DNA from: a virus
Taxonomy: Duplodnaviria > Caudoviricetes
Strand: one strand, 5' to 3'
Length of the DNA: 64,000 nucleotides
Virus record (IMG/VR): IMGVR_UViG_3300002839_000006
Coordinates: 17,703-81,702 of that record
Shown here: one piece after another, positions 32,736 to 63,992 of the stretch
Layout: every line of letters begins with the position of its first letter
How positions within the stretch are numbered: position 1 is the first letter of the stretch
Notes under the pieces: generated by a model
The model's database searches: none
The model's input: only the letters and a program-made list of their open reading frames with translations
What the model was told of the DNA's origin: nothing
Program-made: the position numbers and the translations under genes

Positions 32736-32758
32736 TAATTTATAATCGTTTTAAATAA
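32736..32758. promoter_or_regulatory. 23-bp palindromic site, 51 bp from TAAAATT box at 32685
   Basis: TAATTTATAA-TCG-TTTTAAATAA. Confidence 0.65.
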
Positions 32759-34457: not shown

Positions 34458-34494
34458 AATGTCGAAATTTAATGTTAAAAATAAAAAGATTTGT

Positions 34495-34667
34495 ACCGAC
34501 ATTTTTTGTCGGTCTACTTCCTACCCTTTAACTTATACTATAGAATATATAAATAATATATAATAATAATATAAGCATATATCCTAATAGTCTCTTATAT
34601 GGGGTATTTTGTATATTATAATACCTAATTAGTAGATTATAGGGGCAAATTAATCTATTATAAGGGG
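34495..34667. repeat. Iteron-like direct repeats, AT-rich tract and inverted repeat (candidate replication origin)
   Basis: AATAGTCTCTTATATGGGG (34586-34604), AATTAGTAGATTATAGGGG (34627-34645), AATTAATCTATTATAAGGGG (34648-34667); AT-rich tract ~34535-34580; ACCGACA-TTTTT-TGTCGGT (34495-34513). Confidence 0.55.
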
Positions 34668-35081: not shown

Positions 35082-35672
35082 TTAATTCTCGTCTTTTAAT
35101 ATTTTTAAATAGTTATCTTCATTAGTCCAACAAAGATCATTTAAAGGAACATTTTTTAATCTCTCATCACGTTTTTTACGCTTTTCATCATCTATAATTT
35201 TTTGTTTTTCCCACCTGTGTTGATCTTCAATAGAACTACAACTTGATTTATGACTATAATAAGATCTTATAAAAACAATTCCTTTAGAATCAACATAAGG
35301 GATATCACCTATAAAAACAACATTGAAACTTCTACCATGAACATTATTTCTGTATAAACCATCAAATGGTAAAAATCTTAAATTAGAAGATATCATTCTG
35401 TTGTATTTAGGTCTAAGAAAGAAAATTAAATATGATTCAAAGAATAGTGCTCTTTTCTTATTAACCTTTCTAATAAATATTTTATTGAAAATTTTGTTAC
35501 TTGAAATGTGATCAACAAGCCTATGATTTACTTTAAAAGTCTGACCTACATAAACTATATCTTCATCATTTACTAGTAAATAAATAAAATATTGCCCTGG
35601 ACAATCTATAAAGAATTCCTCTTTAGGGTTGATTTCAATGAATTTCTTTAAATTAATTTTACTGATGTTCAT
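35082..35672 (-). CDS. GIY-YIG nuclease-domain protein
   Basis: FIYLL...IVYVGQT...RL.DH...E..LI..L.PKYN. Confidence 0.8.
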   Translation of the reverse strand: MNISKINLKKFIEINPKEEFFIDCPGQYFIYLLVNDEDIVYVGQTFKVNHRLVDHISSNKIFNKIFIRKVNKKRALFFESYLIFFLRPKYNRMISSNLRFLPFDGLYRNNVHGRSFNVVFIGDIPYVDSKGIVFIRSYYSHKSSCSSIEDQHRWEKQKIIDDEKRKKRDERLKNVPLNDLCWTNEDNYLKILKDEN

Positions 35673-40158: not shown

Positions 40159-41148
40159 TTACTTCAATAATAATAATTGATTGAAAACTCTCTGTGCTGC
40201 TATGGATTCATCACCACCTAAGTTGATGCCAGCCATCTTCCTGTCTTCTGACTTGTAAGTCTTAACATTCTGGAAGTAGGAAGTAACACCATTATAAAGG
40301 TGTAGTGCTGAACCACGATGCAGATCTTGACCAGGAGCAGTCTCTATTGCCCTGAAAACGTCATCTAAGGTATTTCTCTTACGTGTTGAGATGCCATCAA
40401 CAGTATTCATCATCTCTATTTCTTCTGCCGTTAGAAACGTGTTATGGATTATATTCTTGGCTACTGTTTCATTCAGTTGAAACTTGACAAGATGATTGAG
40501 GATCTCTTCAAACTCAGCATTATATTTGTAGGAGAGATCAAGTAACTTAGCACCTTCTTTAAGCCTGTCCGACATATTAGCTGTGTGCTTCAGATTGATT
40601 CTGTTGGTGGCACCTTTAAAAGAGGCATTGAGTGTATTGTTACAGACAACTCTTACATCGGTGAAATATAAGGAAAGAGCACCACCTGCATGTGAGTTGG
40701 TGAATACTAAGAACTTCTCAATGATGTCATCTGAACCATTTATTCTCATATAACCTGGAAGTTTAGCAGTAACGAAAGTAGTCTCGCCTTTGCCAAGTGC
40801 TCCAGCAGTTTCATATATGATGTCTGACTTGGCATTCACCAGTGAGTCCATATATTTGAATGCCTCTATGTTCTGCATCACAGTGTATTTGGATTGTGCT
40901 ACTGAATAAAGGATGTCATGATTGTCGGTTCTAATTAAAGAGAAAGAAGAAGTAGGGATGAACTCATCATTGATATTGACAAAGTTTGGTATTTTCTCAA
41001 CCTGATAATCGAGGTGAGCTATTTTAAGAACTTCATCTGAGTTCTTTGCTGTTTCAACTACTTGACCTAAATTGTGCCAAGCCTTTTGTTTGAGGAGATA
41101 CAATGATGCTTCTCCTGTTTTTGAATCGATTGCTAAATTGTGTGCCAT
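40159..41148 (-). CDS. DUF932-family phage/plasmid protein (TIGR03299-like)
   Basis: MAHN...AWH.LG.V, Y.V.QN..AF, YETAG.L..G...F..AKLP, NSH.G, VRVVC.NTL, HT motifs. Confidence 0.88.
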   Translation of the reverse strand: MAHNLAIDSKTGEASLYLLKQKAWHNLGQVVETAKNSDEVLKIAHLDYQVEKIPNFVNINDEFIPTSSFSLIRTDNHDILYSVAQSKYTVMQNIEAFKYMDSLVNAKSDIIYETAGALGKGETTFVTAKLPGYMRINGSDDIIEKFLVFTNSHAGGALSLYFTDVRVVCNNTLNASFKGATNRINLKHTANMSDRLKEGAKLLDLSYKYNAEFEEILNHLVKFQLNETVAKNIIHNTFLTAEEIEMMNTVDGISTRKRNTLDDVFRAIETAPGQDLHRGSALHLYNGVTSYFQNVKTYKSEDRKMAGINLGGDESIAAQRVFNQLLLLK

Positions 41149-45699: not shown

Positions 45700-46464
45700 T
45701 TATATTTGATTTAAAGGATTATTAGGCGATTTGCATCTAGGACCATGATATCTTATCATATTACTAGCGTTTTTGCTTTCAAGCCCACAGTATTCACAAG
45801 TTATAACTTTTCTTCTGGTCCAAGCCTCTTTATAGCGCTGACACGCTTCGGGGCTCTTCTTTGTCCCTTTGAGAGGGTTACCAAATTCTTCAAATCTTTT
45901 TCTTTTAGATTCTTTAATCTGATCCATTTTTTCTTTTGAATGCGTTTTGCCAAAGAAAGGATTATTTTCGCCAGCAAATCTTCCCGTCATGGCATTATGT
46001 TGTTTCAACTTTGACTCTTCTGATCTGGTTGTTCCAAAGAGTGGGTTGTCTTTACCTAGTTTATGAACACCATACATGGGATTTAATTCTCCAGTTCTTC
46101 CAAACATTGGATTATTTTCCCCTGAAATATCTGGACGGTTCAATTTCATCTTTTCTTTAGAATCTTCTCTATGTTTATACCCAACTTTCTGTCCAGTGCC
46201 TTTGATATGGACATTATAACCCACTAAAGGATTAGTGCAATCTAATTCAACTTGCCAAAATTTTTCTTTACTCGATAAATCTTCATAATTGCAATATTCT
46301 AATACAATGCGGACAAAATTTTCTTTCCCTAGATCTTTAATTGCTTTTTTAAATTTAGCTCCACCGCCTAAGTATTTATCGTTTAGATTATTGGTAGAAT
46401 GATGACCAACGTATATCAACCCATTTATTAAACAAGTTACTTTATAAATAAAATGATATTTCAT
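45700..46464 (-). CDS. Free-standing GIY-YIG homing endonuclease with NUMOD3 repeats
   Basis: FIYKVT..ING.IYVG.H...YLG.G; repeated GENNP(M/F)FG..(H/R)S.E.K; C-terminal C..C...H..C. Confidence 0.88.
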
Positions 46465-51232: not shown

Positions 51233-51949
51233 TTAATAAGTTATATCGTCAAATAAGATAGAGATTCTATTCTGGAACTCTTTCAATAGAGGTCTCATCA
51301 GTTCTTGCATCTGTGGATGAGCAGCGTTGGCAGTTCTTTGTCTGAATATTTCTCTCCACTCCCGGATATTGGCTGACATATTAATCTCAGTCTTTAGAGA
51401 GTTAGGTAATACTGCTCTAGCCTGCTGAGGAGTCCAGCCAGTATTAACCATCATTTTATAAGAACTTTCACATTGATCTAATGCAACTAAAAATGAATTA
51501 AGCTTAGTGTCTTCTTTCATTTGTTCATTTGACACCATTATCTCCATTTTTGATACGTCGCAATAGTCGCCATCCCACCAGACATATTGTCCTTCTGGAA
51601 TATTTAGCCAACATGGAATGATAAAAGTAACTTCCCCATTACTGAACTTATCATCTGTATAATTGCAGAATCTTGTGCTTTCTTGAGCAAAAGAAGCTAA
51701 TCTATGCCGAACTAATTCATGTGATACGCCTCTGTCGCAGACAAATTTGACTGTAATCATTCCACCGAATTCAAGCATGGCATTATGTCCTCTAGCCATT
51801 AAAACATTCTTGATAAGTTTTTCAGCAGAACCAGGAGCTATTCTATCTTCTGACTTATAACAGGTTCTTGCTGCTAGTTCAATTTGATTCAGAATCTGTT
51901 CTCCATTAATAGGAGTGATGATCTCGAAATATGGTTTTATTAGTCTCAT
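51233..51949 (-). CDS. thyX: Flavin-dependent thymidylate synthase
   Basis: GH.A.LE, DRGVSHELVRHR.ASFAQESTR, QQAR.VLP, N.REW..I..QR, AHPQM. Confidence 0.93.
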   Translation of the reverse strand: MRLIKPYFEIITPINGEQILNQIELAARTCYKSEDRIAPGSAEKLIKNVLMARGHNAMLEFGGMITVKFVCDRGVSHELVRHRLASFAQESTRFCNYTDDKFSNGEVTFIIPCWLNIPEGQYVWWDGDYCDVSKMEIMVSNEQMKEDTKLNSFLVALDQCESSYKMMVNTGWTPQQARAVLPNSLKTEINMSANIREWREIFRQRTANAAHPQMQELMRPLLKEFQNRISILFDDITY

Positions 51950-52275
51950 TCTTTTATGTAGTAGATTGGTTTATTATAAACATCTGCTAGAGTCAATTCT
52001 CCAGCAATTCCTTGACTATTTCTAACTCTCTCCTCGCCCTGATTCTTCATTATGACTACGGCCAATTGGTCGCACCACTCGATAAATGATTCATCGAAAG
52101 TCTTCCAGTACTGCCATCCTTTGGGAAGATCTCCCGATAAAGCAATGGGATGAGTGTGCGAGATGGGAGAGAAGACGATGTGACCCTCTAGCATGAGTTC
52201 TGCTGCGATCTTATTGGCTACTGAGAAGCTCTCCTCTTCGAAGCCACTATAGGGTATTGCTAGATAGATCTTCAT
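51946..52275 (-). CDS. DUF1937 / nucleoside-deoxyribosyltransferase-like protein
   Basis: IYLA.PYS...A..L...G..VFSPISH.H...W...D..F...CD...S.G...E. Confidence 0.75.
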   Translation of the reverse strand: MKIYLAIPYSGFEEESFSVANKIAAELMLEGHIVFSPISHTHPIALSGDLPKGWQYWKTFDESFIEWCDQLAVVIMKNQGEERVRNSQGIAGELTLADVYNKPIYYIKE

Positions 52276-52595
52276 ATTCCCTCTTTCTTTGATTTGATAT
52301 AGCCAGCCATCAATATCGAGTAGTTTGCGAGGTCCAACAATGTGTCCTCGATCTTCTCGTCTGCTACGTTAAGCACGCCCTGCTGGACGAACGAATTGAC
52401 TCGAGACACCTTATCCATCATCCGAGTCAGGAAGCCCTGTTCTGCGGACGCTATACCGATATTCTCGACCAGCTTGAAATTGGCGAAACAGTCGTCCTTG
52501 CTGAAGCCAGCATAGTCGTGATTCTTGGACGCCACGATAGATTTGAGTTTATCTAAACACTCTTGGTGATAGGTTAGAAATTCTTGATTTGTCAT
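52272..52595 (-). CDS. DUF1599 / nucleotide-modification-associated domain 1 protein
   Basis: KNHDY...NF...RM.DK..R...E..EDTL.DLANY.I. Confidence 0.8.
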   Translation of the reverse strand: MTNQEFLTYHQECLDKLKSIVASKNHDYAGFSKDDCFANFKLVENIGIASAEQGFLTRMMDKVSRVNSFVQQGVLNVADEKIEDTLLDLANYSILMAGYIKSKKEGI

Positions 52596-52599
52596 ATAT

Positions 52600-55500
52600 T
52601 TATTTTAAGATTACTAATTCGCTGTTGTCCCAGAACTTGCATGCGTTCTCTTTCTTGTAGGTGTCGAGTTTGATCATCCCTGTGAGCAGTAGGATGTTGC
52701 CCTCCTGTCCTATCAGCTCGATGCCAGATTTTGTGAGCTGCTGATACTGGCAGGGAAATATAGACACCCAGATGAATGTGTAGTTGCTCTCAATCCTGAT
52801 CGAGCAGTATTTGCCACTCTTCTTGGATGTCCGCTCAATCACCTCTACTATGTAGCCGCCTATCGAGTAGTAGATGTTACTTAGCGACTCTGACTGCCAC
52901 TCATCCTGATCGAGATACTTTCCATCTGTCAGATACTTGTCGCACATAGTCTTGTAGTCGAAGAATGCTATGCCAGTCAGCCTCTTCTGCCTGAGGTCCC
53001 ACCACCAGTCATCGGAGATGTCCTTCTCGCTCAGCGTCATGAGATCCTTCTCGGCATCTATCTTAGTCTTCTTCTCAGTCCGGTAGAAGTCTATCAGTCG
53101 CTTGCGCTTGAGAGAGTCCTCTATCTCCTCGACCTTGTCGAATGCACCTGAGAATATGAGATTCTCTACATGAGTCTTGTTGACCTTGCTGCCCTTGAAA
53201 GTGTGCCTGCTCAGGAACTCCTCGAAGCTGAAATATGGTCCATTCTCATCCCTATCTTTCATGATCTGCTCAGCAGCAACTCCACCGACTGACTTGATGC
53301 TCGTGAGCGCCCAGTAGATGGTGTTCTTCTTGAAGTTCGAAGTCATATCGAACAGCGACTCATTGATGTCGGGTGGAGATATCTTTATGGCTCCAGTGGC
53401 ATGGATCTCAGATATGAAATCAGCTACCAATTCATCTTTAGCAAACTTGAATGCTGTGGTCCAGAATTCGATTGGGTGATTGACCTTAAACCACTGACTA
53501 ATATACCCAGTTATCGCATAGGCAGCCGCATGGCTGGCATTAAACCCGTAACCCGCAAACGCTTCTAGCTTATCCCAGATCTTTTCTGCAACACTTGCTT
53601 CGCATCCATTTGCTACAGCTCCCAAAACAAATTTATCATGATAGATATAGAACTGATCTCTAAACTGTTTCTTTCCCCTGCCAAGCATCACTTTTCTCAT
53701 CATGTCTGCCTCAACTAAAGTGAATCCGCCAAGTACCTGAGCAGCCCTCATTGTCTGTTCTTGGTAGATATATAGACCGTAAGTCTTTTTAGTCACACTT
53801 TCAAGCATATAGTCGTATTCAGGCTCTTTCATACCCCATTTAATCATCACAAAGTCATTGTGAGCATTAGATTTCATGGCGCCAGGACGATATAATGCAT
53901 TGGTTGCGCTGAGCTCTTCCATCGAATCAGGCTTCAATTCTTTAGTATATTTCTTCAGTCCCTGAGTCCCGAACTGGAACACATCAGAGTTCCACCCCTT
54001 TCCAAAGTACCTATATACAGCATCGTCATCTAATGGTATCTTCTTGAAGTCGATCTTTATCCCCTTGTTCTCCTCTATGAGCTTTATGCAGCTGGCGAAC
54101 TTATCCAATTGTTGAATACCTAATATATCTTCTTTTAAGAATCCTGCTTTGTCCAGCTGAATGCCCTCCCACTCGCTGACGAGCAGCTCCTCTCCATCTT
54201 TAGATAGGACCTTCTTGACTGGGAACCAGTGATAGATGTCCTTGTCTGCTGGAGTGATGATGGTGGCGCATGCATGGACTGATCCAGATCTAGGCTGCAT
54301 CAGACACAATTTAGCGTCGTGAACTATGTCTGGATTGCGCATCACAAAGTCCTTCAGTTTCTGAGACTTAGATGCAAGATGGAATATCTCAGACCAATCG
54401 GTGCCGTCCTTCTCTCCCTCTCCGAGTATGCTTGTCATCATCTTGACCTCCTGAATAGGAATGTTGCTACGTTTTGCAAGGTCTGTGAATATCATCTTCA
54501 GTTTCAGGTTGCCGTATGTCCCTACAGAGCACACCTGATCGTATCCGAATCTCTGCTCCATATAGTGCTTTACCTCATCCCTTCTCAGTCCCTCAAAGTC
54601 TGAGTCAATGTCAGGGATTGATTTCTTGACCCTATTCTCATTCAAGAACCTCTCGAACAGGAGGTCGTACTCGAATGGATCGATGTTGGTTATCCCCAAT
54701 AGGTATGCGATGAGACTTCCAGCAGATGATCCTCGGCCATATCCGACTAATATGTTCTGTTTGCCGCACCAGTCTATGATATCCCATAGGATGAGGAAGT
54801 AATCAATCAGATTCTGGCCCTTCATGATGACTGAATACTCTATCTCAATCCTGTCCAGATATTTCTCTCTGTCCTCGTCCGAGCATTTCTCATCCATCCC
54901 CTCGCCTATGAGGCCCCAGAATAGGTCTATCTTATCCTTATACTTCGTTAACTGCTCCTCTGTTAGTACATAGTCAGGCAGATAGAAGTGCTCTGTATCG
55001 ATCTGGAAGTTGCAGATCTCAGACAGTGTGTTGGCATTCTTGATGGCTTTTGATGCTATATCGTAGAACGACTCATCCTCTGTAGAGAATAACAGCTCTA
55101 ACTCTGCCAGATAGTCATCGGCGTCTTTGAAATACTGGTTGGATGACTCATACTCCCTGACTCCAGATATCCCATTCAGCGTCTTCTTTATGTGGCTGTG
55201 ATCCCTATCTAGGTAGAATGCATCGCATATGAATATCGGCTTCAGGCTGCCATCTCTGACAAACGCCTTTAGATTCAGAAGATACTCCTGATCTTTGGAC
55301 TGATCATTATATATGACAGTATCCAGCTGATAGTACTTCATGTAGCTCCTCATCCTGCCCAATTTATCATATGATCCACTCTTTGGATCTACGATCACTA
55401 TCACATCCTCCAAGAGCTCTATGAACCTATCCTCGTATATGAACTTGTTGTTGATGACATTGACCTCTTTGTTGATCATCAGTAGGTTGGTCCAGCCAGT

Positions 55501-56040
55501 CTCTGACTTTGCGAAGCACTTGATATCCTGCTTGTAATCTTCGCCCTTCCTGACGACAGTGTAAGTCGCTCCAAGTATCGGCTTGATATCGAGGTTCTTG
55601 CACTCAATCTGAAACTTGAGAGCTCCAGCCAATGTGTTCTTCTCTATGATGCCGAGAGATTTGACTCCCAAGAACTTTGCTTTAGCGCACCAGTCCTCAT
55701 AGATTCTAGAGCCATTGAGTATCTCATACGCCCCTCTGACTCCAAGAAAAGCATCAGTCTCTATCTCTCTCTTCGACTGGCCAATATATCTGAGCTCTTT
55801 GAATGTCGGTTTATCCTTGTCTGCTTTGTTTATGTAGTAGTAGTCCCCACCGAATCTAAATGCATAATTGTCGCAGTCTGTATCATCTGCTTGTAGATGC
55901 AGGTCATCATCGAATAGCCTGCCAGTGGAGTCTGGCCAGATGAACTCGAAAGTCTGATCTGCTATCTTGAACTTGCTCTTGATCTCGAGAGTCTCATAGT
56001 CCAGCTTGTTGTCCTCTAGATGTCTTATCAGTTTCTCCAT
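52600..56040 (-). CDS. dnaE: DNA polymerase III alpha subunit (phage DnaE)
   Basis: GRGSSAGSLIAYLLGIT..DP, FERFLN, PDIDSDF, K.DILG, GVFQF-like VFQFG, IYQEQ, YGFN.SHA.AY; start moved to MEKLIRH (56040). Confidence 0.95.
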   Translation of the reverse strand: MEKLIRHLEDNKLDYETLEIKSKFKIADQTFEFIWPDSTGRLFDDDLHLQADDTDCDNYAFRFGGDYYYINKADKDKPTFKELRYIGQSKREIETDAFLGVRGAYEILNGSRIYEDWCAKAKFLGVKSLGIIEKNTLAGALKFQIECKNLDIKPILGATYTVVRKGEDYKQDIKCFAKSETGWTNLLMINKEVNVINNKFIYEDRFIELLEDVIVIVDPKSGSYDKLGRMRSYMKYYQLDTVIYNDQSKDQEYLLNLKAFVRDGSLKPIFICDAFYLDRDHSHIKKTLNGISGVREYESSNQYFKDADDYLAELELLFSTEDESFYDIASKAIKNANTLSEICNFQIDTEHFYLPDYVLTEEQLTKYKDKIDLFWGLIGEGMDEKCSDEDREKYLDRIEIEYSVIMKGQNLIDYFLILWDIIDWCGKQNILVGYGRGSSAGSLIAYLLGITNIDPFEYDLLFERFLNENRVKKSIPDIDSDFEGLRRDEVKHYMEQRFGYDQVCSVGTYGNLKLKMIFTDLAKRSNIPIQEVKMMTSILGEGEKDGTDWSEIFHLASKSQKLKDFVMRNPDIVHDAKLCLMQPRSGSVHACATIITPADKDIYHWFPVKKVLSKDGEELLVSEWEGIQLDKAGFLKEDILGIQQLDKFASCIKLIEENKGIKIDFKKIPLDDDAVYRYFGKGWNSDVFQFGTQGLKKYTKELKPDSMEELSATNALYRPGAMKSNAHNDFVMIKWGMKEPEYDYMLESVTKKTYGLYIYQEQTMRAAQVLGGFTLVEADMMRKVMLGRGKKQFRDQFYIYHDKFVLGAVANGCEASVAEKIWDKLEAFAGYGFNASHAAAYAITGYISQWFKVNHPIEFWTTAFKFAKDELVADFISEIHATGAIKISPPDINESLFDMTSNFKKNTIYWALTSIKSVGGVAAEQIMKDRDENGPYFSFEEFLSRHTFKGSKVNKTHVENLIFSGAFDKVEEIEDSLKRKRLIDFYRTEKKTKIDAEKDLMTLSEKDISDDWWWDLRQKRLTGIAFFDYKTMCDKYLTDGKYLDQDEWQSESLSNIYYSIGGYIVEVIERTSKKSGKYCSIRIESNYTFIWVSIFPCQYQQLTKSGIELIGQEGNILLLTGMIKLDTYKKENACKFWDNSELVILK

Positions 56041-56041
56041 C

Positions 56042-56899
56042 CTATAGATATAGATGAAAGTTTCCAACAAATACTGCAACTCGATAATCATCAACGCCCT
56101 CAATAGCTTTTATGACTTCGAGAGACATGAGAGCGAATATCTCGCAGTCCATCTCCACTTTATCAATGTCCTGAGACCTCTGGTAGACTGTGGTGAATAG
56201 GATGTCGTCTTTGATCTGGAACTGAATAGATACTGTGCAGTTTGGCAATGGATCGCTCTGATCGAACTGAATGATCGCCTGTCGACTCGTATTGTCTCTC
56301 TCAAGTCGCTTTATGGCGTCTCTTAGAGCAGTTCTATACATGATCAACTTATCCTTCACATAGGGAAGTCTATCATCTGTGATGCGCCAGAATACGTTGG
56401 AGAAGAAATGATACGAGTGGTTCAGTATCTCTTTGACTCTACAACCAACAGTGACTCTCTCGACTCCGCATAATTCTAGATACTTTCTCATTCCCTCTAC
56501 GAACACATCTCCCGTCTCAATCTTTGAGAGATAGGATGAGATCTCTTTGTCTTCTGGCTTGACATCATTATTCCTGCATATGAAGACATCTGCTGATTCG
56601 CAAGCATAGCTCCCTAGTCCAGGATACCCTATGACTGAGTCCTTCATAACATCTACATCTTCAGTGAAAGATGCTACGAAAGCTTTTATTCTCTTTGCCT
56701 TCACATTCTGCATCCCCAAACTCTCAATCTCTCCTGCCAGAGTATTCTCATCTATGTCCCTTAAGTCATTGAGAGTAGGAAACGTCCTGAAGAACTCTCT
56801 CATCATCTTCTTGACTTGCACTCCAGTAGTCTGGTTGAGCAGGATGCAGCAGACGAGCATCTTCCATGGCTCGCGCCTGTATATGTCTTGTATCATCAT
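56042..56899 (-). CDS. Fusion of an MBD4-like HhH-GPD glycosylase (N) and a compact thymidylate-synthase-like domain (C)
   Basis: N: PWKMLVCCILLNQT...FP...LG....KAK.I...PGLG.YA..S..F...PED. C: SRQAII...PNCT...QFQI...VYQRSQD...D...GNFHLY. Confidence 0.8.
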   Translation of the reverse strand: MMIQDIYRREPWKMLVCCILLNQTTGVQVKKMMREFFRTFPTLNDLRDIDENTLAGEIESLGMQNVKAKRIKAFVASFTEDVDVMKDSVIGYPGLGSYACESADVFICRNNDVKPEDKEISSYLSKIETGDVFVEGMRKYLELCGVERVTVGCRVKEILNHSYHFFSNVFWRITDDRLPYVKDKLIMYRTALRDAIKRLERDNTSRQAIIQFDQSDPLPNCTVSIQFQIKDDILFTTVYQRSQDIDKVEMDCEIFALMSLEVIKAIEGVDDYRVAVFVGNFHLYL

Positions 56900-57780
56900 A
56901 TCTTATCACCTCCTATGTAGTATGAGCCCTTATACTTCTCGCAGTCGAGCATGAGCTCCTGCTTAGTCTTATCGTGTAATGTCCACTCATCTGTATATCC
57001 CTCGATAGCGTGATCCTCATCTCGTTTGAAGATGCAGTTTGCGGCGTACCCCTTTCTAAGATGCAGGCACTTGCCATTGTCATCGTGCGACACGAAATAG
57101 GACGCCATGTATGGGAATTTATCTACTATCAGATTCCTCATCTGCTCAGCCATGGCATTCATCTCTGGGTGCTCCTCTTGGGAGTCGGTACGCTTGCCAT
57201 AGATCGACAGTAGGGTGGGCAGAGCGACTGCTACGTATATCCAAGAAGGTATCGTCTTAGGGAGGCAGAACCTTGCGTCAGTGTTTGCTATCTCTCCAGA
57301 GTCGAGCATGTCGGCGTACAGCCTCTTTCCCTGTTGGACCCATTCTTCGTATCGTTTGAGCATGTCGGGTAGCTTGGTGAATGCCCTCGGGACAAGCACA
57401 TCTGAGTGCCTAAAATCCTTCACAGCCTGTGACTGCTGCATGTATGCTATGCCTATCCTGTTCCTGACTAGGGCGTGCGTTCCGTGCAGGGAGAGTCCCT
57501 TGACTATGAAGCAGAACTGAGGGTGCTCCATGCCCTGGCCGAGTATCTTTCCCGAGAATAGGTCATTGACCACTTCGTCCCTGTCTTCTGGAGTAGCATT
57601 GTCGTAGAAGTTCTCAAACCAAGATGCCTGGCTCATGTTCACGAATACTCGTTTCAATCTCTCTGGATCTGGCCAGTCGATCATGTCCACTTGGACTGCA
57701 GATAGGTTGTCGATGAACTTAGTCTTCGGTATCTCTCCTTGTTTAATCTCAAACATTCTCTTTATCTTCTCTATTTTCAT
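56896..57780 (-). CDS. Divergent ThyX-like flavoprotein
   Basis: MEH..F.F...G.S...TH.LVRNR.G..Y.QQSQA, DAR.CLP, R......PE...MA..M: ThyX layout with the RHR and S.R motifs altered. Confidence 0.75.
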   Translation of the reverse strand: MKIEKIKRMFEIKQGEIPKTKFIDNLSAVQVDMIDWPDPERLKRVFVNMSQASWFENFYDNATPEDRDEVVNDLFSGKILGQGMEHPQFCFIVKGLSLHGTHALVRNRIGIAYMQQSQAVKDFRHSDVLVPRAFTKLPDMLKRYEEWVQQGKRLYADMLDSGEIANTDARFCLPKTIPSWIYVAVALPTLLSIYGKRTDSQEEHPEMNAMAEQMRNLIVDKFPYMASYFVSHDDNGKCLHLRKGYAANCIFKRDEDHAIEGYTDEWTLHDKTKQELMLDCEKYKGSYYIGGDKI

Positions 57781-57782
57781 TT

Positions 57783-59024
57783 TTACTGCTGTTTTTGTTT
57801 CTCATATCTCTCTGTGACTTTCTTTGATTTCATCTCGAATAACTCAATGAACTTCTGGGGAGTTATGTCCCACATCAGGCAGATGTTGACGAAGTACTTG
57901 AACGCATCTATGAGCTCTTCGGATAATAGATCTATGTCCACCGTCTTCTTCGGCTTGTGCTGCTTGTAGTTAATCTCATTCATCACTTCGGATAGCTCTA
58001 TGATCATGGCTGTGAAGTAGTCCTTCGTGAGCGATTCCCTCTGATGAGTCTCGGTCAGGCTGTTGAAGTCCACGAAATTGGAAGTGAATCTCTTCTGCAT
58101 GTTCCAGATGTTGGACATATCGAATGATGATAGAGCCTTCTCAATGACATCCTGCTGCTTGAATGAGTGGTCCCAAGTGGCGAACCTGCCCACAAACTCC
58201 ACTCTGTTAGGAGGTATGTTATTGCTGTCAGAGAATATGAGTCCATCGATCTCGTGATAGAAGTCCAACACTGCTGCTCCAGTAGGGAGATGCTCTACGC
58301 AGTCCTCTTGAGATAGCCTCCCTGAGAACTCATATAGGAATGCGTCAGACTGGTCCCTCCTACGCTTTGATATTCTGGTGTACTTGACATCTGCGTCCAC
58401 AAAATAAGCGAGGTCGAACTTCTCTTTCGAGAGGCAATCAGGTAGCTTATCGCACAATAGGAAGGTTATCGTCTCAGATTTCAGCTCCTCGGTCCTCTGC
58501 TGGTAGTACATGCCCCAGAATGCTCTGGCGCTGATAGTCGAGACCAGCTTGTCATATTTGTATCGAGTGTCGTGAGTGATGATCTCTGTCTCAGTTATCT
58601 TGATGACCGTCTCATTTATGACCTCTACTCCCTCTCTCAGTCTGGATAGGATGTCCTGGAACGATACTTCGAAGACTGAGATGAAGTTGTCGCTGGTGCT
58701 GAGCGAGAGGTCTTTAGCGTCGAACTCAGGGTCGTTGAGCTTCTTCGATATGAACTTCTTCTTGTCCTCTATCGTGAGCTTTGTCAATATCTTGTCAGAC
58801 TTGACATATTTTATGAGCTGCGTCTTCTTTACTATTGGGAGCTTGAGGTCCTCGAGCAGCCTCTCGGTGAATGGAGTGGCGTGTAGGTAGAATATGTTCT
58901 CGAAGAATTTGTTGTTGAGCTTGCCCCCGATATCTGGGGATATGATCGTGAAATCTCTGTTGTAGTAAGCGTATATTAGGCCGCTTATGCCTGCGCCGAG
59001 GATATAGTTATCTCTCACTCTCAT
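57783..59024 (-). CDS. Fusion of an FAD-dependent oxidoreductase (Glf/amine-oxidase-like) and an all-alpha dUTPase/dCTPase-like domain
   Basis: N: ILGAGISGL...IGG, LVSTI, VGRFATW.H....DVI. C: ELSEV.NE..YKQHK...EELID..KY. Confidence 0.75.
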   Translation of the reverse strand: MRVRDNYILGAGISGLIYAYYNRDFTIISPDIGGKLNNKFFENIFYLHATPFTERLLEDLKLPIVKKTQLIKYVKSDKILTKLTIEDKKKFISKKLNDPEFDAKDLSLSTSDNFISVFEVSFQDILSRLREGVEVINETVIKITETEIITHDTRYKYDKLVSTISARAFWGMYYQQRTEELKSETITFLLCDKLPDCLSKEKFDLAYFVDADVKYTRISKRRRDQSDAFLYEFSGRLSQEDCVEHLPTGAAVLDFYHEIDGLIFSDSNNIPPNRVEFVGRFATWDHSFKQQDVIEKALSSFDMSNIWNMQKRFTSNFVDFNSLTETHQRESLTKDYFTAMIIELSEVMNEINYKQHKPKKTVDIDLLSEELIDAFKYFVNICLMWDITPQKFIELFEMKSKKVTERYEKQKQQ

Positions 59025-59325
59025 CTTTCAGAATCTTTGCTATTATGAATATTGCATAGTTTGCGCAATCGATGGCTGAGTCCAGAGCCACCTCTCTGTT
59101 GATTATCTGCTCTTGTCCGCTCTCCATGCTCATCTGGAGCTTGAATCGCTTCATCTTGTTGAGCACCTGATAGTAGAGGAACATATAGTCGTCTCCGAGA
59201 TAGGTGTCTCCATACTGATCTGCTCTATCTGCTCTGGTGATGAGCACTCTATCGAGAGCATCTAGGAACTCCTGGCCCAGTTTGGATGAGTCAGGAGTCA
59301 CCGTGATCTGATTTACTTCTGGCAT
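59008..59325 (-). CDS. Second DUF1599/Nmad1-like protein
   Basis: R..QYGD...NK.KR...E..LDS.ID.ANYAI. Confidence 0.65.
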   Translation of the reverse strand: MPEVNQITVTPDSSKLGQEFLDALDRVLITRADRADQYGDTYLGDDYMFLYYQVLNKMKRFKLQMSMESGQEQIINREVALDSAIDCANYAIFIIAKILKDESER

Positions 59326-60149
59326 TTAGATGCCTCTTTCATGAAGTGTCCCAAGCCCTCTACTTTGATGGACAGCCAGTACTTGCCCTTATCAGTCTTG
59401 ACAGATACAACTTTGCCCTTCAGCTCCTGATTAGAAGCCAGCTTGGAGTTCTTGGCAGATGTGAATGTCACATCATCGCCCTTGGCGAAAATACATGCAA
59501 GCATGTCATCTGACGATGCTGCAGGAGCTTTCTTGTCTTTGGCAATGTTCTTATCAGCCTCTTTCGTCTTGATGACTGGAGCGTCTGCTTTTGCGATCTT
59601 CATGGATGCTGGAGGCAGCGAGGTACGAGTAGATGTTTTTACTTCAATAGGGGCAACTTCTTGCTCTTCTACCTGTTCTACTTCCTGTTCTTCAACTGAT
59701 GGCTGCTCAAGGAGCTCAGCGAGCACTGCCTTCTTTGATTCTTTCTTTACTTCCTCAACTTGCTCCTGAGGAACTTCTTTCTTCTTCATATTGCTTTTAG
59801 ATTTTGCGTTCTTGTCCAATTCGACGTCCATAGTGTGGAACATCTTTACTTTTTCGCTTCCGTCCAGCAGAGCATACGCATACTGGTCGTCCTCGATTGA
59901 TTTGAATTTTGTAATTGTGCCAGGGAACCACTTGCCCCCTACCCTGAAATTTGCCCTGTCATCTGCTGCGATGATATCGCTGTTGCGATCAGTGTATTCA
60001 TCAGATGCTGGCGTTGCAGCCTGAGCTACTTTGATCTTCTCGATTAATTTAACTTTATCCATTATTCCTGTTTTTGTTATTCCTAATAGTGTTGCTTCTT
60101 TCCCCAACTGGATGGTGGTCATGTTTCTCAATTCTCTGTCAGTTCTCAT
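59313..60149 (-). CDS. Hypothetical protein with short N-terminal helical motif and two SH3-like domains
   Basis: LR.M...QL...A..LGI...K..LI; beta-rich domains separated by an E/K/A/P linker. Confidence 0.6.
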   Translation of the reverse strand: MRTDRELRNMTTIQLGKEATLLGITKTGIMDKVKLIEKIKVAQAATPASDEYTDRNSDIIAADDRANFRVGGKWFPGTITKFKSIEDDQYAYALLDGSEKVKMFHTMDVELDKNAKSKSNMKKKEVPQEQVEEVKKESKKAVLAELLEQPSVEEQEVEQVEEQEVAPIEVKTSTRTSLPPASMKIAKADAPVIKTKEADKNIAKDKKAPAASSDDMLACIFAKGDDVTFTSAKNSKLASNQELKGKVVSVKTDKGKYWLSIKVEGLGHFMKEASKCQK

Positions 60150-60228
60150 GGTTGATATCTTATAGTTGTGACTCTGTAAAAGTATAACATTTATACTTCT
60201 ATTTTACAAATGATATAAAATAAAAGTG

Positions 60229-60251
60229 AAATTTGTAAAGATTATAGATAA
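60229..60251. promoter_or_regulatory. Degenerate 23-bp palindromic site, 52 bp from TAAAAGT variant box at 60177
   Basis: AAATTTGTAA-AGA-TTATAGATAA; lies upstream of the base-modification operon. Confidence 0.45.
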
Positions 60252-60256
60252 TAGTT

Positions 60257-60282
60257 GAAATGAGCAGAAGAGTATCTGCTCA
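60257..60282 (-). terminator. Probable terminator
   Basis: TGAGCAGA-6nt-TCTGCTCA (60261-60282) followed by TTTC on the minus strand. Confidence 0.55.
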
Positions 60283-60377
60283 TGTGACGTTCAGTATCAA
60301 ATGCTTTTTAGGTAAGACAAAACCTTCACGAAGTTCTTTGAATTTTACGAGCATATTGCGAAATTGGGTTTGATTAT

Positions 60378-62480: not shown

Positions 62481-63992
62481 TTATTTATATTTTATCAATA
62501 GTTTCTTATTCATCACATCATCAGTGAATCCTCCTATTGTTTTTCTATAATCTTCACGCCAAAAGAAAGGCATTCCTCCATCATCTCCATTAGACATTAG
62601 TTCGTAGAATTTCTTAAGCCAATTTCTTTTGTCTTCCATACTTATATCTGAATGAATTCTTACCTTACGACCTTGCTCATCTTTAGTAAACTGATTATAT
62701 TTTTTAGCAAGTAAAACTAGTCCAGAGGGTAATGCATTATGCTTAACTTCAACTTCTGACTCAGCAAGCCATTTATTAGCTAATATATCTATGTAATAAT
62801 CGCCAAGATTATCAATATCACTTGGATTTAATGAAGCGCGATATCTAGGACCATCCCCTCTATGATAACCACCCACAAGATTGTTTAATCTATTATCAAA
62901 TTTACAAGGCAAAACTTTTATTTCTCTACCTGCCTTTTTCAACGCTGCGTTAAAAGAATCTGCTTCCTTTATAGAACTTACAAAAATGCTATCAACATCA
63001 TCTATAGACAGCTTCCCATATATTTGAGCTTCCATATATGAAGAAACAGATGCTTCTGTAAATTCATCAATATTTTTAGCTTCATTTATTTTATTCCACA
63101 TATCTGAGTTAGGATCATTATTATTAATGCCCCAAATGAGTTTATCATCTACATCATTTAATTTAGTAGGGGGCGCTACAGAAGTTAAATCTATTTGACC
63201 TTTATACGAGATAGAACCATTATCATTGAACGAATCTCCCAAAGTAATACTAGTTCTATCTTTGACAGCAGATGTCTTAAATTTTACATATGCATTTCCA
63301 TAATTTCCTTCGGAGATAGGTTCATAACTCATCTCTTCTTTTGAAGAAATAAATCCGTATTTTGGAAAATTATCTGCTTCGCTTGAATTAGCTTCTGTAT
63401 CTATGCCAAAAATAAACTTCTCTTTCAGCGTTCTCTCTTCTCCAATCGTTTTAAAAGACCCTTTTCCCGTTTCAAGACTATTTTTAAATGCGTCTGATTT
63501 ATTAATAATCTCTCTAATAAGCGTTCCACTCTTAATAGCCATATAAACGGCACTGTCATTAATAAAACTTTTTAATTTTTTCTCTAAATTCTCTTTGCCT
63601 CCTAATTTATCATATAGTTCATTTTGATCTTTAAATTTTCCTTTTGATGTTTTTTGAAACATTTCTGATGTCGTCAGATTCTCCCTAGCAATATTAAAAT
63701 TTTTCGGGAAACTCTCATTCATTTTAATTTTCTCTGATTTTAATTCTGATTTTGAACACTCTTCCTTCTCTTCGATTTTAGATTCAGACTTAACTTTTTT
63801 CTCCAAAACCCAATCCTTGTGACCATTACCAGTATCAGATACTTTGACCCAAGTTCCTTGTTTATTAACGTGAATAGCTCCAATAGGAGACTTCTTTCCC
63901 TTTTCGATATCAATATTGATCGTAAACGACTTCGCGATCCACTCTCTCTGTAAATTAATACCCTCTTGAATCGATTTAAAAATATCTTCCAT
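62481..63992 (-). CDS. Head-associated family protein 5 with DUF3626-like (possible ADP-ribosyltransferase-fold) domain
   Basis: N-terminal DIEKGKKSPIGAIHVNKQGTWVKVSDTGNGHKDWVLEK; internal PKYGF...YG...F...VKDRTSIT.GDS...YMEAQIYG.L...DV..I. Confidence 0.7.
   Translation of the reverse strand: MEDIFKSIQEGINLQREWIAKSFTINIDIEKGKKSPIGAIHVNKQGTWVKVSDTGNGHKDWVLEKKVKSESKIEEKEECSKSELKSEKIKMNESFPKNFNIARENLTTSEMFQKTSKGKFKDQNELYDKLGGKENLEKKLKSFINDSAVYMAIKSGTLIREIINKSDAFKNSLETGKGSFKTIGEERTLKEKFIFGIDTEANSSEADNFPKYGFISSKEEMSYEPISEGNYGNAYVKFKTSAVKDRTSITLGDSFNDNGSISYKGQIDLTSVAPPTKLNDVDDKLIWGINNNDPNSDMWNKINEAKNIDEFTEASVSSYMEAQIYGKLSIDDVDSIFVSSIKEADSFNAALKKAGREIKVLPCKFDNRLNNLVGGYHRGDGPRYRASLNPSDIDNLGDYYIDILANKWLAESEVEVKHNALPSGLVLLAKKYNQFTKDEQGRKVRIHSDISMEDKRNWLKKFYELMSNGDDGGMPFFWREDYRKTIGGFTDDVMNKKLLIKYK

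What the first reader, a model, noticed from the sequence alone, without database searches (positions are those of the whole stretch)
56896..57780. Second ThyX-fold protein with remodelled active-site motifs
Seen: THALVRNRIGIAYMQQSQAVKD versus SHELVRHRLASFAQESTRFCNY in the canonical ThyX of the same window. RHR becomes RNR, S-x-R becomes S-Q-A, and the GH preceding EH is lost (GQGMEH versus GHNAMLE), while DAR..LP is kept. Established: these His/Arg residues bind FAD, folate and dUMP in ThyX. Inference: a neofunctionalised flavoenzyme acting on a non-dUMP nucleotide or performing folate-independent chemistry.
Basis: partly seen in the sequence, partly recalled or inferred. Interest (0 to 1): 0.7.

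Follow-up and report, generated by a model that had tools for sequence, protein, structure and literature searches.

The report
Rewired second ThyX in phage operon
An uncultured phage carries, beside a normal flavin-type thymidylate synthase, a second copy whose substrate-holding residues have been replaced; this form is conserved in about 70 related phage proteins and is always wired to the same odd partner enzymes, so it probably makes an unusual DNA pyrimidine, although no chemistry has been measured.

Summary
ORF 56896-57780 (-) is a full ThyX-fold protein: Pfam Thy1 81.5 bits, AF2 pLDDT 92, Z 15.4 to M. tuberculosis ThyX. It reads RNR for RHR and S-Q-A-V for S-x-R-Y. It has no His before the conserved Glu and Leu where a dUMP-binding Arg sits, but keeps both RxR arginines, the Ser and the DAR arginine. 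It fails the thyX equivalog cut-off (59.8 vs 87.9 bits); the canonical copy at 51233-51949 passes.

This is not decay. The "S-x-A-V" form is a monophyletic phage clade of 71 sequences, nested in a larger "C-[ST]-G-[DE]" clade that also lacks Arg90 and Tyr91. It has gained its own invariant polar residues. It lies in a tight operon: FAD amine-oxidase/UGM-fold::MazG fusion, ThyX-like, then HhH-GPD::mini-ThyA. That order holds in 5 of 5 class-A loci.

My best reading (about 0.45) is a flavin-dependent pyrimidine C5 one-carbon transferase with a non-dTMP outcome. The rival, a divergent but ordinary dTMP synthase, stays alive at about 0.3, because relatives, including two complete genomes, carry it as their only Thy1 gene.

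This scan has flagged similar divergent-ThyX modules on other DNA, in Pbunavirus-like phages. Function is untested.

The parts
56896..57780 (-). Divergent ThyX-fold protein, 294 aa, class A 'S-x-A-V'. It keeps Arg106/Arg108, Ser117, Arg170, Arg197 and Glu85. The canonical His53, His79, Arg87(Mtb), Arg90 and Tyr91 are replaced by Leu80, Asn107, Leu98, Ala119 and Val120. There are family-specific N-terminal (1-24) and C-terminal (~238-294) extensions, with invariant His240, Asn248, Arg253, His269 and Lys271.
57783..59024 (-). Fusion protein, 413 aa. The N-terminal ~300 aa are an FAD Rossmann domain (GAGISG) of the amine-oxidase / protoporphyrinogen-oxidase / UDP-galactopyranose-mutase / renalase fold. 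The C-terminal ~110 aa are an all-alpha MazG/dUTPase_2-type NTP pyrophosphatase with the metal motif E343-x2-E346...E370-x2-D373. Its stop lies 2 nt before the ThyX-like ATG.
   Evidence: conserved directly upstream of the ThyX-like gene in class A and most class B loci
56042..56899 (-). HhH-GPD glycosylase-like domain fused to a ~160-aa mini-ThyA domain. The mini-ThyA keeps the SR, N-C (Cys146 equivalent), YQRSQD and GN-H motifs and has Asp where ThyA has Asn177. It lacks the N-terminal ~110 residues of ThyA. Its ATG overlaps the ThyX-like stop (ATGA), with GGAGG upstream.
   Evidence: present directly downstream in 5 of 5 class A loci
59008..59325 (-). 105-aa protein with no Pfam hit. Homologues lie upstream of the FAD::MazG gene in all four class A loci (39-59% identity). 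Pairwise BLAST to the window's true Nmad1 was not significant.
52600..56103 (-). DnaE-type DNA polymerase III alpha (PHP, NTPase, finger and HHH_6 domains), directly downstream of the three-enzyme core.
52272..52595 (-). Nmad1 protein (Pfam PF07659, 'Nucleotide modification associated domain 1').
51946..52275 (-). DUF1937 / nucleoside 2-deoxyribosyltransferase-like protein. It is the last gene of the GC-rich block. Its stop overlaps the canonical ThyX start (ATGA).
51233..51949 (-). Canonical ThyX (RHR, S-T-R-F, G-H...E), outside the GC-rich block. It passes the TIGR02170 cut-off.
59313..60149 (-). 278-aa Lys/Glu-rich protein of unknown function. It is the first gene of the GC-rich block. Promoter-like sites cluster just upstream (60181-60300), though not above chance.
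51946..60149 (.). Compositional island: about 45% G+C against about 33% in the rest of the window. The edges are sharp, near 52000 and 60150.

Best explanation
The gene encodes a folded, selected member of a phage-only subfamily of the ThyX (Thy1) fold. It most likely still binds a flavin and still moves a one-carbon unit onto C5 of a pyrimidine, but with a different substrate pose or product from ordinary dUMP-to-dTMP synthesis.

Shown: the fold; retention of the two flavin-phosphate arginines, the Ser and the base-contacting Arg; replacement of the residues that hold dUMP and help discharge the flavin carbinolamine (Arg87Mtb, Arg90, Tyr91) and of His53 and His79; gain of a conserved C-terminal extension with invariant His, Asn, Arg, His and Lys; and a fixed operon.

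Inferred mechanism: the MazG domain of the upstream fusion hydrolyses a dNTP (dUTP or dCTP) to the dNMP, which both feeds the pathway and drains the canonical pool. The fused FAD domain supplies or recycles reduced flavin, or oxidises the product. The ThyX-like enzyme forms the flavin-N5 methylene or carbinolamine adduct and transfers the carbon to C5. Because the acid/lid pair Arg90-Tyr91 is gone, the exocyclic-methylene intermediate is captured by water or another nucleophile instead of being reduced. That would give a 5-hydroxymethyl-type or otherwise substituted pyrimidine nucleotide. The phage's own DnaE, encoded next door, would then incorporate it. The translationally coupled HhH-GPD::mini-ThyA protein acts in the same pathway.
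For: Fold and integrity: Pfam Thy1 81.5 bits over the full profile; AF2 pLDDT 92.2, pTM 0.88; Foldseek E about 1e-11 and TM 0.75 to T. maritima ThyX, with PolB also matched; VIA Z 15.4, rmsd 3.4, 210 residues aligned to Mtb ThyX.

Selection: 70 homologues at 35-83% identity. Class A comprises 71 sequences and is monophyletic (support 99). Arg106, Arg108, Ser117, Ala119, Arg170, Arg197, Glu202, Glu203, His240 and Asn248 are invariant.

Departure from ThyX: 59.8 bits against the TIGR02170 cut-off of 87.9. The literature shows that S88A, R90A and Y91A slow carbinolamine consumption (PMC8316439), that His53 stacks on flavin and folate (PMC11940539), and that Arg87, Arg107 and Tyr108 of Mtb ThyX hold and cover dUMP (PMC6514825).

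Context: the FAD::MazG fusion lies directly upstream in 5 of 5 class A loci and in 6 of 7 class B loci (one of them, L008, with the FAD domain alone). The mini-ThyA lies directly downstream in 5 of 5 class A loci. The junctions are an ATGA overlap and a 2-nt spacer. Nmad1, DUF1937 and DnaE lie in the same block.

Chemistry is plausible: ThyX forms an exocyclic methylene that is then reduced (PMC8989533), and can use formaldehyde directly (PMC8316439).

Related leads: a class B member is fused to a GT-A-like domain. Geobacillus phage GR1 has a glycosyltransferase and a nitroreductase beside its class B gene. Pbunavirus F8 gp059 shares the C-terminal Cys extension, and Pbunavirus DNA carries a sugar-type hypermodified thymine whose genes are unknown (PMC12191111).
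Against: No assay exists and no modified base is known for any phage carrying class A or B.

In all nine related records searched the divergent gene is the only Thy1 gene, and the two complete genomes among them also lack ThyA. This is what one expects if it simply makes dTMP.

A dUTPase-like MazG plus a flavin reductase next to a ThyX is also the logical kit for ordinary dTMP synthesis.

Tyr91 is not universal: the window's own canonical copy and many phage ThyX have Phe there.

The base-contacting Arg170 is kept, which argues for a uracil-type substrate.

No dNMP kinase, glycosyltransferase or dCMP deaminase was found in the 74%-complete genome.

The pairing with a canonical ThyX may be an accident of module exchange (GC island).
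Confidence: 0.45

Rival explanations
1. It is a divergent but functionally ordinary thymidylate synthase. The lost His, Arg and Tyr residues are compensated by the new C-terminal residues (Arg253, Lys271, His240, His269). The fused FAD domain, or the nitroreductase in GR1, is a dedicated reductase, and the MazG domain is a dUTPase feeding dUMP.
For: It is the sole Thy1 gene in nine of nine related records, including a complete DTR genome and the complete GR1 genome, and these two lack ThyA. Arg106, Arg108, Ser117 and Arg170 are retained. The MazG domain matches the dUTPase_2 model. GR1 has an NAD(P)H nitroreductase immediately upstream. Phe replaces Tyr91 in apparently normal phage ThyX. The middle residue of RxR varies freely across the clade.
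Against: It is below the thyX equivalog cut-off. Arg90, Tyr91, His53 and Arg87Mtb are lost together, and single mutants of the first two are already strongly impaired (PMC8316439). This genome already has a canonical ThyX 5 kb away. There is constant linkage to a mini-ThyA with Asp at the Asn177 position and to an HhH-GPD domain, which dTMP synthesis does not need.
Confidence: 0.3
2. It is a non-nucleotide-binding flavin/one-carbon carrier subunit that works only together with the mini-ThyA protein. ThyX-like keeps the flavin chemistry and mini-ThyA keeps the nucleotide pocket and the Cys nucleophile (complementary losses).
For: ThyX-like lost dUMP-contacting residues but kept the flavin-binding arginines. 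Mini-ThyA kept the SR, Cys, YQRSQD and GN-H motifs but lacks the N-terminal ~110 residues of ThyA. The two genes overlap by ATGA and are adjacent in 5 of 5 class A loci. Class B has Cys at the Ser88 position in 62 of 70 sequences, whereas class A, which always has the mini-ThyA, has Ser in 71 of 71.
Against: This is purely inferential and no complex was modelled. One class B locus with Cys (L008) also has a ThyA-like hit next door. Arg170, the base-contacting Arg, is still invariant in ThyX-like.
Confidence: 0.12
3. It acts after replication on a base flipped out of DNA (as TrmFO does on tRNA), and not on a free nucleotide. This would explain the loss of the 5'-phosphate-binding arginines.
For: Arg87Mtb and Arg90 equivalents are lost. 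A DNA-binding, base-flipping HhH-GPD domain is encoded in the coupled downstream gene. Hypermodified thymine in Pbunavirus is sequence-context specific (PMC12191111).
Against: No DNA-binding domain or basic surface was identified in ThyX-like itself. The upstream MazG domain points to nucleotide-pool chemistry. In L004 the downstream protein lacks the HhH-GPD domain.
Confidence: 0.08
4. It is a decaying or non-functional duplicate.
For: Several canonical catalytic residues are missing.
Against: The frame is intact and the model is confident. There are 71 class A sequences down to 45% identity with invariant active-site and extension residues. The operon is conserved.
Confidence: 0.02

Closest known systems
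Flavin-dependent thymidylate synthase ThyX/FDTS (EC 2.1.1.148; T. maritima TM0449, PDB 1o26; M. tuberculosis ThyX, PDB 3gwc)
   Same: Same fold over residues ~20-238 (Z 14.9-15.4). It hits Pfam Thy1. It has both arginines of the RxR flavin-phosphate motif, the Ser88 equivalent, the Arg174 equivalent (DAR..LP) and the conserved Glu of the helix-3 motif.
   Different: His79 is Asn, Arg90 is Ala, Tyr91 is Val, Arg87(Mtb) is Leu, and there is no His53. There is a one-residue insertion (Gly110) after RxR, an extra N-terminal ~24 aa, and a C-terminal ~55 aa with its own invariant residues. It scores below the TIGR02170 cut-off.
PolB, the UMP/dUMP C5-methylase ThyX paralogue of polyoxin biosynthesis (Streptomyces cacaoi, PDB 4p5a/4p5b)
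   Same: It is a precedent for a second, neofunctionalised ThyX paralogue (PMC5954106). The structural match equals that of ThyX proper (Z 14.6-14.7).
   Different: The sequence match is weak (profile E 0.0058). PolB is a bacterial secondary-metabolism enzyme with no FAD::MazG or mini-ThyA partners. PolB still methylates (d)UMP, and its motif state was not compared here.
Class B 'C-[ST]-G-[DE]' phage ThyX-like proteins, including Geobacillus phage GR1 UDY80709.1
   Same: This is the clade within which class A is nested. It shares the N- and C-terminal extensions, the loss of Arg90 and Tyr91, and the upstream FAD::MazG fusion in metagenomic members.
   Different: Class B has Cys instead of Ser at position 88, Gly-Asp instead of Ala-Val, and mostly keeps the Arg87Mtb equivalent. 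It usually has no adjacent mini-ThyA. GR1 keeps RHR and has a nitroreductase instead of the fusion.
Pbunavirus (PB1/F8-like) ThyX-like gp059 with orphan flavoprotein gp065 beside DnaE
   Same: 26% identity, including the C-terminal Cys-containing extension, and RTR instead of RHR. The orphan flavoprotein aligns with the N-terminal part of the FAD domain here (hhalign 94%, E 1.4e-7, 104 columns). It lies next to DnaE and has a MazG in the module. The phage group has hypermodified thymine of unknown genetic origin (PMC12191111).
   Different: F8 gp059 keeps the Arg90 equivalent (T-S-R-A). The flavoprotein and MazG are separate genes, a HAD/PNKP-type phosphatase is present, and there is no mini-ThyA::HhH-GPD. 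No experiment links these genes to the modification.
ThyA-family dUMP/dCMP hydroxymethylases with dNTP pyrophosphatase (T4 gp42 with gp56; SPO1-type dUMP hydroxymethylase)
   Same: The logic is analogous: an NTP pyrophosphatase makes the dNMP and drains the canonical dNTP, and a thymidylate-synthase relative adds a C1 unit that is not reduced (PMC8989533 for hydroxymethyl-dUMP in thymidine hypermodification; the T4 pathway is from general knowledge).
   Different: The fold (ThyA) and chemistry (Cys nucleophile, no flavin) are unrelated. Here the resemblance is in how it may work, not in membership.

Membership tests
ThyX / FDTS (thymidylate synthase, flavin-dependent) | Thy1 fold and Pfam PF02511 match above the gathering score | tested here: met
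   81.5 bits against a cut-off of 24.8, profile positions 6-190 of 191; Z 15.4 to PDB 3gwc and 14.9 to 1o26
ThyX / FDTS (thymidylate synthase, flavin-dependent) | Score above the curated equivalog cut-off (TIGR02170 thyX) | tested here: not met
   59.8 bits against a cut-off of 87.9; the window's canonical copy scores 98.8
ThyX / FDTS (thymidylate synthase, flavin-dependent) | RHR flavin-binding motif | tested here: not met
   The motif reads RNR. Both Arg are invariant, but the middle residue in class A is Asn 47, Thr 13, Ser 8 and His 2 of 71
ThyX / FDTS (thymidylate synthase, flavin-dependent) | S-x-R-Y active-site loop (Ser88, Arg90, Tyr91 of T. maritima) | tested here: not met
   S-Q-A-V: the Ser is kept (71 of 71), Arg is Ala (71 of 71) and Tyr is Val (68 of 71)
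ThyX / FDTS (thymidylate synthase, flavin-dependent) | His53 (G-H...E-H motif) that stacks on flavin and folate | tested here: not met
   There is no His in residues 70-84. Leu80 occupies the position five residues before Glu85 (68 of 71)
ThyX / FDTS (thymidylate synthase, flavin-dependent) | Base-contacting Arg174 (Arg199 in Mtb) in the A-R..L-P motif | tested here: met
   Arg170 is invariant within D-A-R-x-x-L-P
ThyX / FDTS (thymidylate synthase, flavin-dependent) | dUMP-contacting Arg eight residues before RHR (Arg87 in Mtb) | tested here: not met
   Leu98 in 66 of 71 class A sequences; class B mostly keeps Arg
ThyX / FDTS (thymidylate synthase, flavin-dependent) | Binds FAD, forms a homotetramer, and converts dUMP to dTMP with CH2H4folate and NADPH | not testable with these tools
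   No ligand or oligomer modelling and no assay were available
PolB-type UMP/dUMP methylase | Structural and sequence kinship closer to PolB than to ThyX proper | tested here: inconclusive
   The Z score for PolB (14.6-14.7) is tied with ThyX chains. Profile E for 4p5a is 0.0058, weaker than for Mtb, C. glutamicum and T. maritima ThyX
Phage 'long' ThyX-like clade lacking Arg90/Tyr91 (classes A and B, defined here) | Shared N- and C-terminal extensions, loss of R-Y after Ser/Cys88, and a monophyletic grouping | tested here: met
   Class A forms a clade of 73 rows with support 99, nested among class B. Extension residues are conserved
Phage 'long' ThyX-like clade lacking Arg90/Tyr91 (classes A and B, defined here) | An amine-oxidase-fold FAD protein fused to MazG is encoded directly upstream | tested here: met
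   Window plus L003-L006 (class A) and L007, L010, L011, L012 and L015 (class B). L008 has the FAD domain alone, and L009 had no hit

The most novel reading that the evidence does not exclude
The ThyX-like protein and the translationally coupled mini-ThyA domain form a split hybrid enzyme that merges the two unrelated thymidylate-synthase chemistries. ThyX-like builds the flavin-N5 methylene/carbinolamine donor, possibly without folate. The mini-ThyA lacks the N-terminal ~110 residues of ThyA (where its folate site would be expected) but keeps the Cys nucleophile and has Asp at the Asn177 position. It would bind and activate dCMP, or a cytosine flipped out by its HhH-GPD domain, to accept that carbon. 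The result would be a 5-substituted cytosine in phage DNA.
Probability: 0.1. Interest if true: 0.9.

Novelty: new variant of a known kind. Interest (0 to 1): 0.6.

Why it matters
ThyX is one of only two known ways to make thymidylate, and it is an antibiotic target. Its only characterised neofunctionalised paralogue is PolB. The A+B clade of phage ThyX-fold enzymes is large (141 sequences among the proteins classified) and has dropped the residues that hold dUMP and discharge the flavin adduct, while staying under strong selection. It is hard-wired to a phage-only flavoprotein::MazG fusion and, in class A, to a mini-ThyA. Together these would define a new flavin-dependent route to non-canonical DNA pyrimidines. 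All known thymidine hypermodification pathways start from a ThyA-type hydroxymethylase. A ThyX-type entry point would explain why some phages with modified DNA, such as Pbunavirus, lack recognisable modification genes. It would also give a sequence marker (S-x-A-V or C-[ST]-G-[DE] after RxR) for finding more such phages. If instead the enzyme turns out to be an ordinary dTMP synthase, it would show that Arg90, Tyr91 and His53 are dispensable, which matters for mechanism and inhibitor design.

Tried and rejected
- Degeneration or pseudogene: rejected, because of family-wide conservation and a confident model.
- Close relatives in cultured phages: none. tblastn found identities of at most 28% (only Geobacillus phage GR1 covers more than 80% of the query), and the DNA search of the 8.5-kb block found nothing.
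- FAD::MazG in cultured phages: only one weak dUTPase hit.
- Close relatives in 185,579 species-representative prokaryote genomes: none with single-protein patterns. No host could therefore be assigned.
An assembly chimera cannot be formally excluded. However, it would need two switch points, and the left junction is a clean ATGA gene overlap.
- Nmad1 identity of the 105-aa ORF 59008-59325: not supported by Pfam or by pairwise BLAST to the window's true Nmad1.
- Glycosyltransferase GT2, thymidylate kinase and dCMP deaminase in the phage record: none found in the 74%-complete record.
- Promoter and terminator scans: not above shuffled expectation.
- Literature: searches for a characterised ThyX-like phage enzyme found only PolB and annotation-level mentions.
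Full report
**Observation**

A canonical ThyX lies at 51233..51949 (minus strand, 238 aa) with RHR, S-T-R-F and G-H...E.

- Both proteins match Pfam Thy1. The candidate scores 81.5 bits over profile positions 6-190 of 191; the canonical copy scores 128.6 bits.
- The two copies are only about 24% identical over 97 residues.
- On NCBI's thyX equivalog model (TIGR02170, cut-off 87.9 bits) the canonical copy passes at 98.8 bits and the candidate fails at 59.8.

**Fold**

An AlphaFold2 model built on 28 homologues is confident (pLDDT 92.2, pTM 0.88).

- Foldseek finds only ThyX-family chains at the top: T. maritima, M. tuberculosis and PolB, with E about 1e-11 and target TM 0.65-0.76.
- The VIA-align second look gives Z 15.4 (rmsd 3.4, 210 residues) to Mtb ThyX and 14.9 to T. 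maritima ThyX. Unrelated chains score below Z 3.
- The core is residues ~20-238. The first ~24 and last ~55 residues are family-specific extensions.

**Residue mapping**

A profile of the family aligns without gaps to Mtb ThyX across [25 protein letters not shown]. This gives the following correspondences.

| Candidate residue | Canonical residue |
|---|---|
| Leu98 | Arg87 (Mtb) |
| Arg106-Asn107-Arg108 | Arg95-His96-Arg97 (Mtb); Arg78-His79-Arg80 (T. maritima) |
| Ser117 | Ser105 (Mtb); Ser88 (T. maritima) |
| Ala119 | Arg107 (Mtb); Arg90 (T. maritima) |
| Val120 | Tyr108 (Mtb); Tyr91 (T. maritima) |
| Arg170 | Arg199 (Mtb); Arg174 (T. maritima) |

There is one inserted residue, Gly110, after RxR. 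No His occurs in the 15 residues before the conserved Glu85, where canonical enzymes have the G-H motif (His53 of T. maritima). Leu80 sits at that offset.

What the literature says about these positions:

- The RHR motif hydrogen-bonds the FAD phosphates and ribityl. dUMP is held by Arg95, Arg199, Arg87, Ser105 and Arg107 and is covered by Tyr108 (PMC6514825).
- S88A, R90A and Y91A mutants strongly slow dUMP-triggered consumption of the flavin carbinolamine (PMC8316439).
- His53 stacks on the reduced flavin or on folate and hydrogen-bonds Tyr91 (PMC11940539).

The protein therefore keeps what binds the flavin and the base edge. It has replaced what grips the nucleotide and helps discharge the one-carbon adduct.

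One caveat: the window's canonical copy and many phage ThyX have Phe at the Tyr91 position. That single change is therefore not diagnostic.

**Family**

The word-indexed search found 70 proteins at 35-100% identity, all predicted as Thy1 and almost all from metagenomes. The exhaustive profile search over 1.84 billion representatives found 3415 hits at E below 1e-3 and 83 at E below 1e-30.

I classified 205 of the retrieved proteins by the four residues after the RxR loop:

- 71 "S-x-A-[VIT]" (class A, which includes the query)
- 70 "C/G/A-x-G/A-D/E/N", mostly C-[ST]-G-[DE] (class B)
- 12 "G-G-R-D/N"
- 17 canonical "S-x-R-Y/F"

On a FastTree of 215 rows, class A forms one clade (73 rows, local support 99). 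It is nested among class B lineages.

Within class A the following are invariant or nearly so: Arg106, Arg108, Ser117, Ala119, Arg170, Arg197, Lys152, Glu202, Glu203, His240 and Asn248. Arg253, His269, Lys271, Leu98 and His99 are conserved in at least 62 of 71 sequences. The last group is specific to class A and lies partly in the C-terminal extension.

This pattern is remodelling under selection, not decay.

The middle residue of RxR is free across the wider clade (Ala, His, Gln, Asn, Thr, Ser, ...). Loss of the His is therefore a clade-wide trait.

**Neighbourhood in this window**

Read on the minus strand, the block is:

- a 278-aa unknown protein (59313-60149)
- a 105-aa unknown protein (59008-59325)
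- the FAD::MazG fusion (57783-59024)
- ThyX-like (56896-57780)
- HhH-GPD::mini-ThyA (56042-56899)
- DnaE (52600-56103)
- Nmad1 (52272-52595)
- DUF1937, nucleoside-deoxyribosyltransferase-like (51946-52275)
- canonical ThyX (51233-51949)

The fusion's stop lies 2 nt before the ThyX-like ATG. The ThyX-like stop overlaps the next ATG as ATGA, with GGAGG upstream.

*The FAD::MazG fusion.* Its model (pLDDT 81.6) matches amine oxidases, protoporphyrinogen oxidase, UDP-galactopyranose mutases and renalase. The ESM Atlas places its first 300 residues among phage-only ~300-aa "hypothetical" flavoprotein clusters (structural TM 0.81-0.85). The C-terminal part matches dUTPase_2/MazG and keeps the E-x2-E...E-x2-D motif.

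*The mini-ThyA.* It covers only ThyA profile positions ~112-211 of 266. It keeps the S-R, N-C, YQRSQD and GN-H motifs. By one-gap inspection it has Asp where ThyA has Asn177.

**Neighbourhood elsewhere**

Of 53 viral-contig loci found with the family patterns:

- All four class A loci show the same order: 105-aa protein, FAD::MazG, ThyX-like, mini-ThyA.
- Five of seven class B loci have the full-length FAD::MazG fusion directly upstream. One has the FAD domain alone, and one has no hit.
- More distant RTR-type loci have a ~320-aa protein carrying only the MazG part.

The polymerase next door varies. It is DnaE here and PolA in the complete genome behind L011, where a SAM methyltransferase sits between the fusion and ThyX-like.

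The only cultured carrier is Geobacillus phage GR1. It is class B (Q-C-T-G-D) and keeps RHR. There the gene is preceded by an NAD(P)H nitroreductase. A nucleoside deoxyribosyltransferase and a glycosyltransferase lie upstream, and DnaE and a dUTPase lie downstream.

One class B protein, P0120, is fused to a GT-A-like domain (Glycos_transf_2, 22.1 bits, just under the cut-off).

**Is it a second ThyX in general?**

No. In all nine related records searched the divergent gene is the only Thy1 hit.

- The five metagenomic records are estimated 43-88% complete.
- The other four include one complete DTR genome of 36.9 kb and the complete GR1 genome.
- The two complete genomes also lack any ThyA-family hit.

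This keeps the ordinary-thymidylate-synthase rival alive.

**Compositional island**

In this window the block 51946-60149 has about 45% G+C. The rest has about 33%, and the edges are sharp, near 52000 and 60150.

- Related phages have uniform composition across the same genes.
- The nearest backbone relative (L059) has canonical ThyX, DnaE and the downstream genes but no ThyX-like module within 10 kb.

The simplest reading is that the module was imported by recombination. The co-occurrence with the resident canonical ThyX would then be a consequence of that import.

I could not confirm the junctions independently. A chimeric assembly would need two switch points, and the left junction is a clean ATGA overlap.

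**Link to known biology**

Earlier notes from this scan pointed to Pbunavirus. I checked what I could.

- F8 gp059 is 26% identical to the query, including the C-terminal Cys-containing stretch. It reads R-T-R ... T-S-R-A, so it keeps the Arg90 equivalent.
- It lies beside DnaE, with a HAD/PNKP-type phosphatase and a MazG in the module.
- The orphan flavoprotein gp065 aligns with the N-terminal 104 columns of the FAD domain (hhalign 94%, E 1.4e-7).
- A 2025 preprint reports that F8 and 14-1 DNA carry sugar-type hypermodified thymine in TG context, and notes that these phages lack the gene homologues usually used to predict hypermodification (PMC12191111).

No experiment ties ThyX-like genes to that base.

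Known thymidine hypermodifications start from a ThyA-type dUMP hydroxymethylase. The same paper notes that ThyX passes through an exocyclic methylene that is normally reduced by FADH2 (PMC8989533). T. maritima ThyX can also take its carbon directly from formaldehyde (PMC8316439).

These facts make a non-reducing or folate-independent ThyX variant chemically reasonable. They do not demonstrate one.

**Verdict**

This is a conserved, monophyletic, phage-only subfamily of the ThyX fold with a rebuilt active site and a fixed set of partner genes.

| Reading | Weight |
|---|---|
| Flavin-dependent pyrimidine C5 one-carbon transferase with a non-dTMP outcome, fed by the fused MazG domain | 0.45 |
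| Divergent but ordinary dTMP synthase | 0.30 |
| Obligate partner of the mini-ThyA | 0.12 |
| Acts on DNA after replication | 0.08 |
| Decaying duplicate | 0.02 |

I class it as a new variant of a known kind. Its function is untested, and similar divergent-ThyX modules have already been flagged by this scan in other phages.

Noticed in passing
window 51946-60149: An 8.2-kb block (DUF1937, Nmad1, DnaE, mini-ThyA fusion, ThyX-like, FAD::MazG, and two unknown proteins) has about 45% G+C against about 33% elsewhere, with sharp edges. Related phages are uniform in composition. It looks like an imported replication and nucleotide module. The left edge is a clean ATGA overlap with the low-GC canonical ThyX.
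   Followed up: partly
window 56042-56899 (-): An HhH-GPD glycosylase-like domain is fused to a ~160-aa mini-ThyA. The mini-ThyA keeps the Cys nucleophile and the YQRSQD and GN-H motifs and has Asp at the Asn177 position. It lacks the N-terminal ~110 residues of ThyA. In L004 the homologue has no HhH-GPD domain.
   Followed up: partly
window 57783-59024 (-): The FAD domain belongs to a set of phage-only ~300-aa 'hypothetical' flavoprotein clusters with a compact amine-oxidase/PPO/UGM fold. Here it is fused to a MazG pyrophosphatase. The fusion has no detectable homologue in 50,697 cultured phage records.
   Followed up: partly
window 51233-51949 (-): The canonical ThyX of this phage has Phe, not Tyr, at the position of the 'strictly conserved' Tyr91 (Q-E-S-T-R-F). 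Many RTR-type phage ThyX share this.
   Followed up: no
L056 (Geobacillus phage GR1, OK896991.1, 21752-36570): The only cultured phage with a class B ThyX-like gene. An NAD(P)H nitroreductase lies immediately upstream, with a glycosyltransferase, a nucleoside deoxyribosyltransferase, an HD protein, DnaE, a dUTPase and a NUDIX protein nearby. It has no other Thy1 or ThyA gene. It is a practical system for testing whether this clade modifies DNA.
   Followed up: partly
proteins P0120, P0146, P0080: P0120 is a GT-A/GT2-like domain fused to a class B ThyX-like protein. P0146 is a ThyX-like protein carrying an HNH homing-endonuclease domain. P0080 is a 2635-aa repetitive ORF with 45 copies of a short ThyX-like motif and is probably an artefact.
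   Followed up: partly
window 45700-46464 (-) and 35082-35672 (-): GIY-YIG homing-endonuclease-like genes lie among the replication genes. The first carries NUMOD3 repeats and sits between RecA and a 672-aa ORF.
   Followed up: no
window 27277-28887, 36457-38445, 32751-34502, 40159-41148, 62481-63992 (all -): The phage encodes a Cpn60/GroEL-type chaperonin, an NAD-dependent DNA ligase with BRCT, an SNF2 helicase, a DUF932 protein, and a 503-aa protein with a weak DUF3626 match.
   Followed up: no
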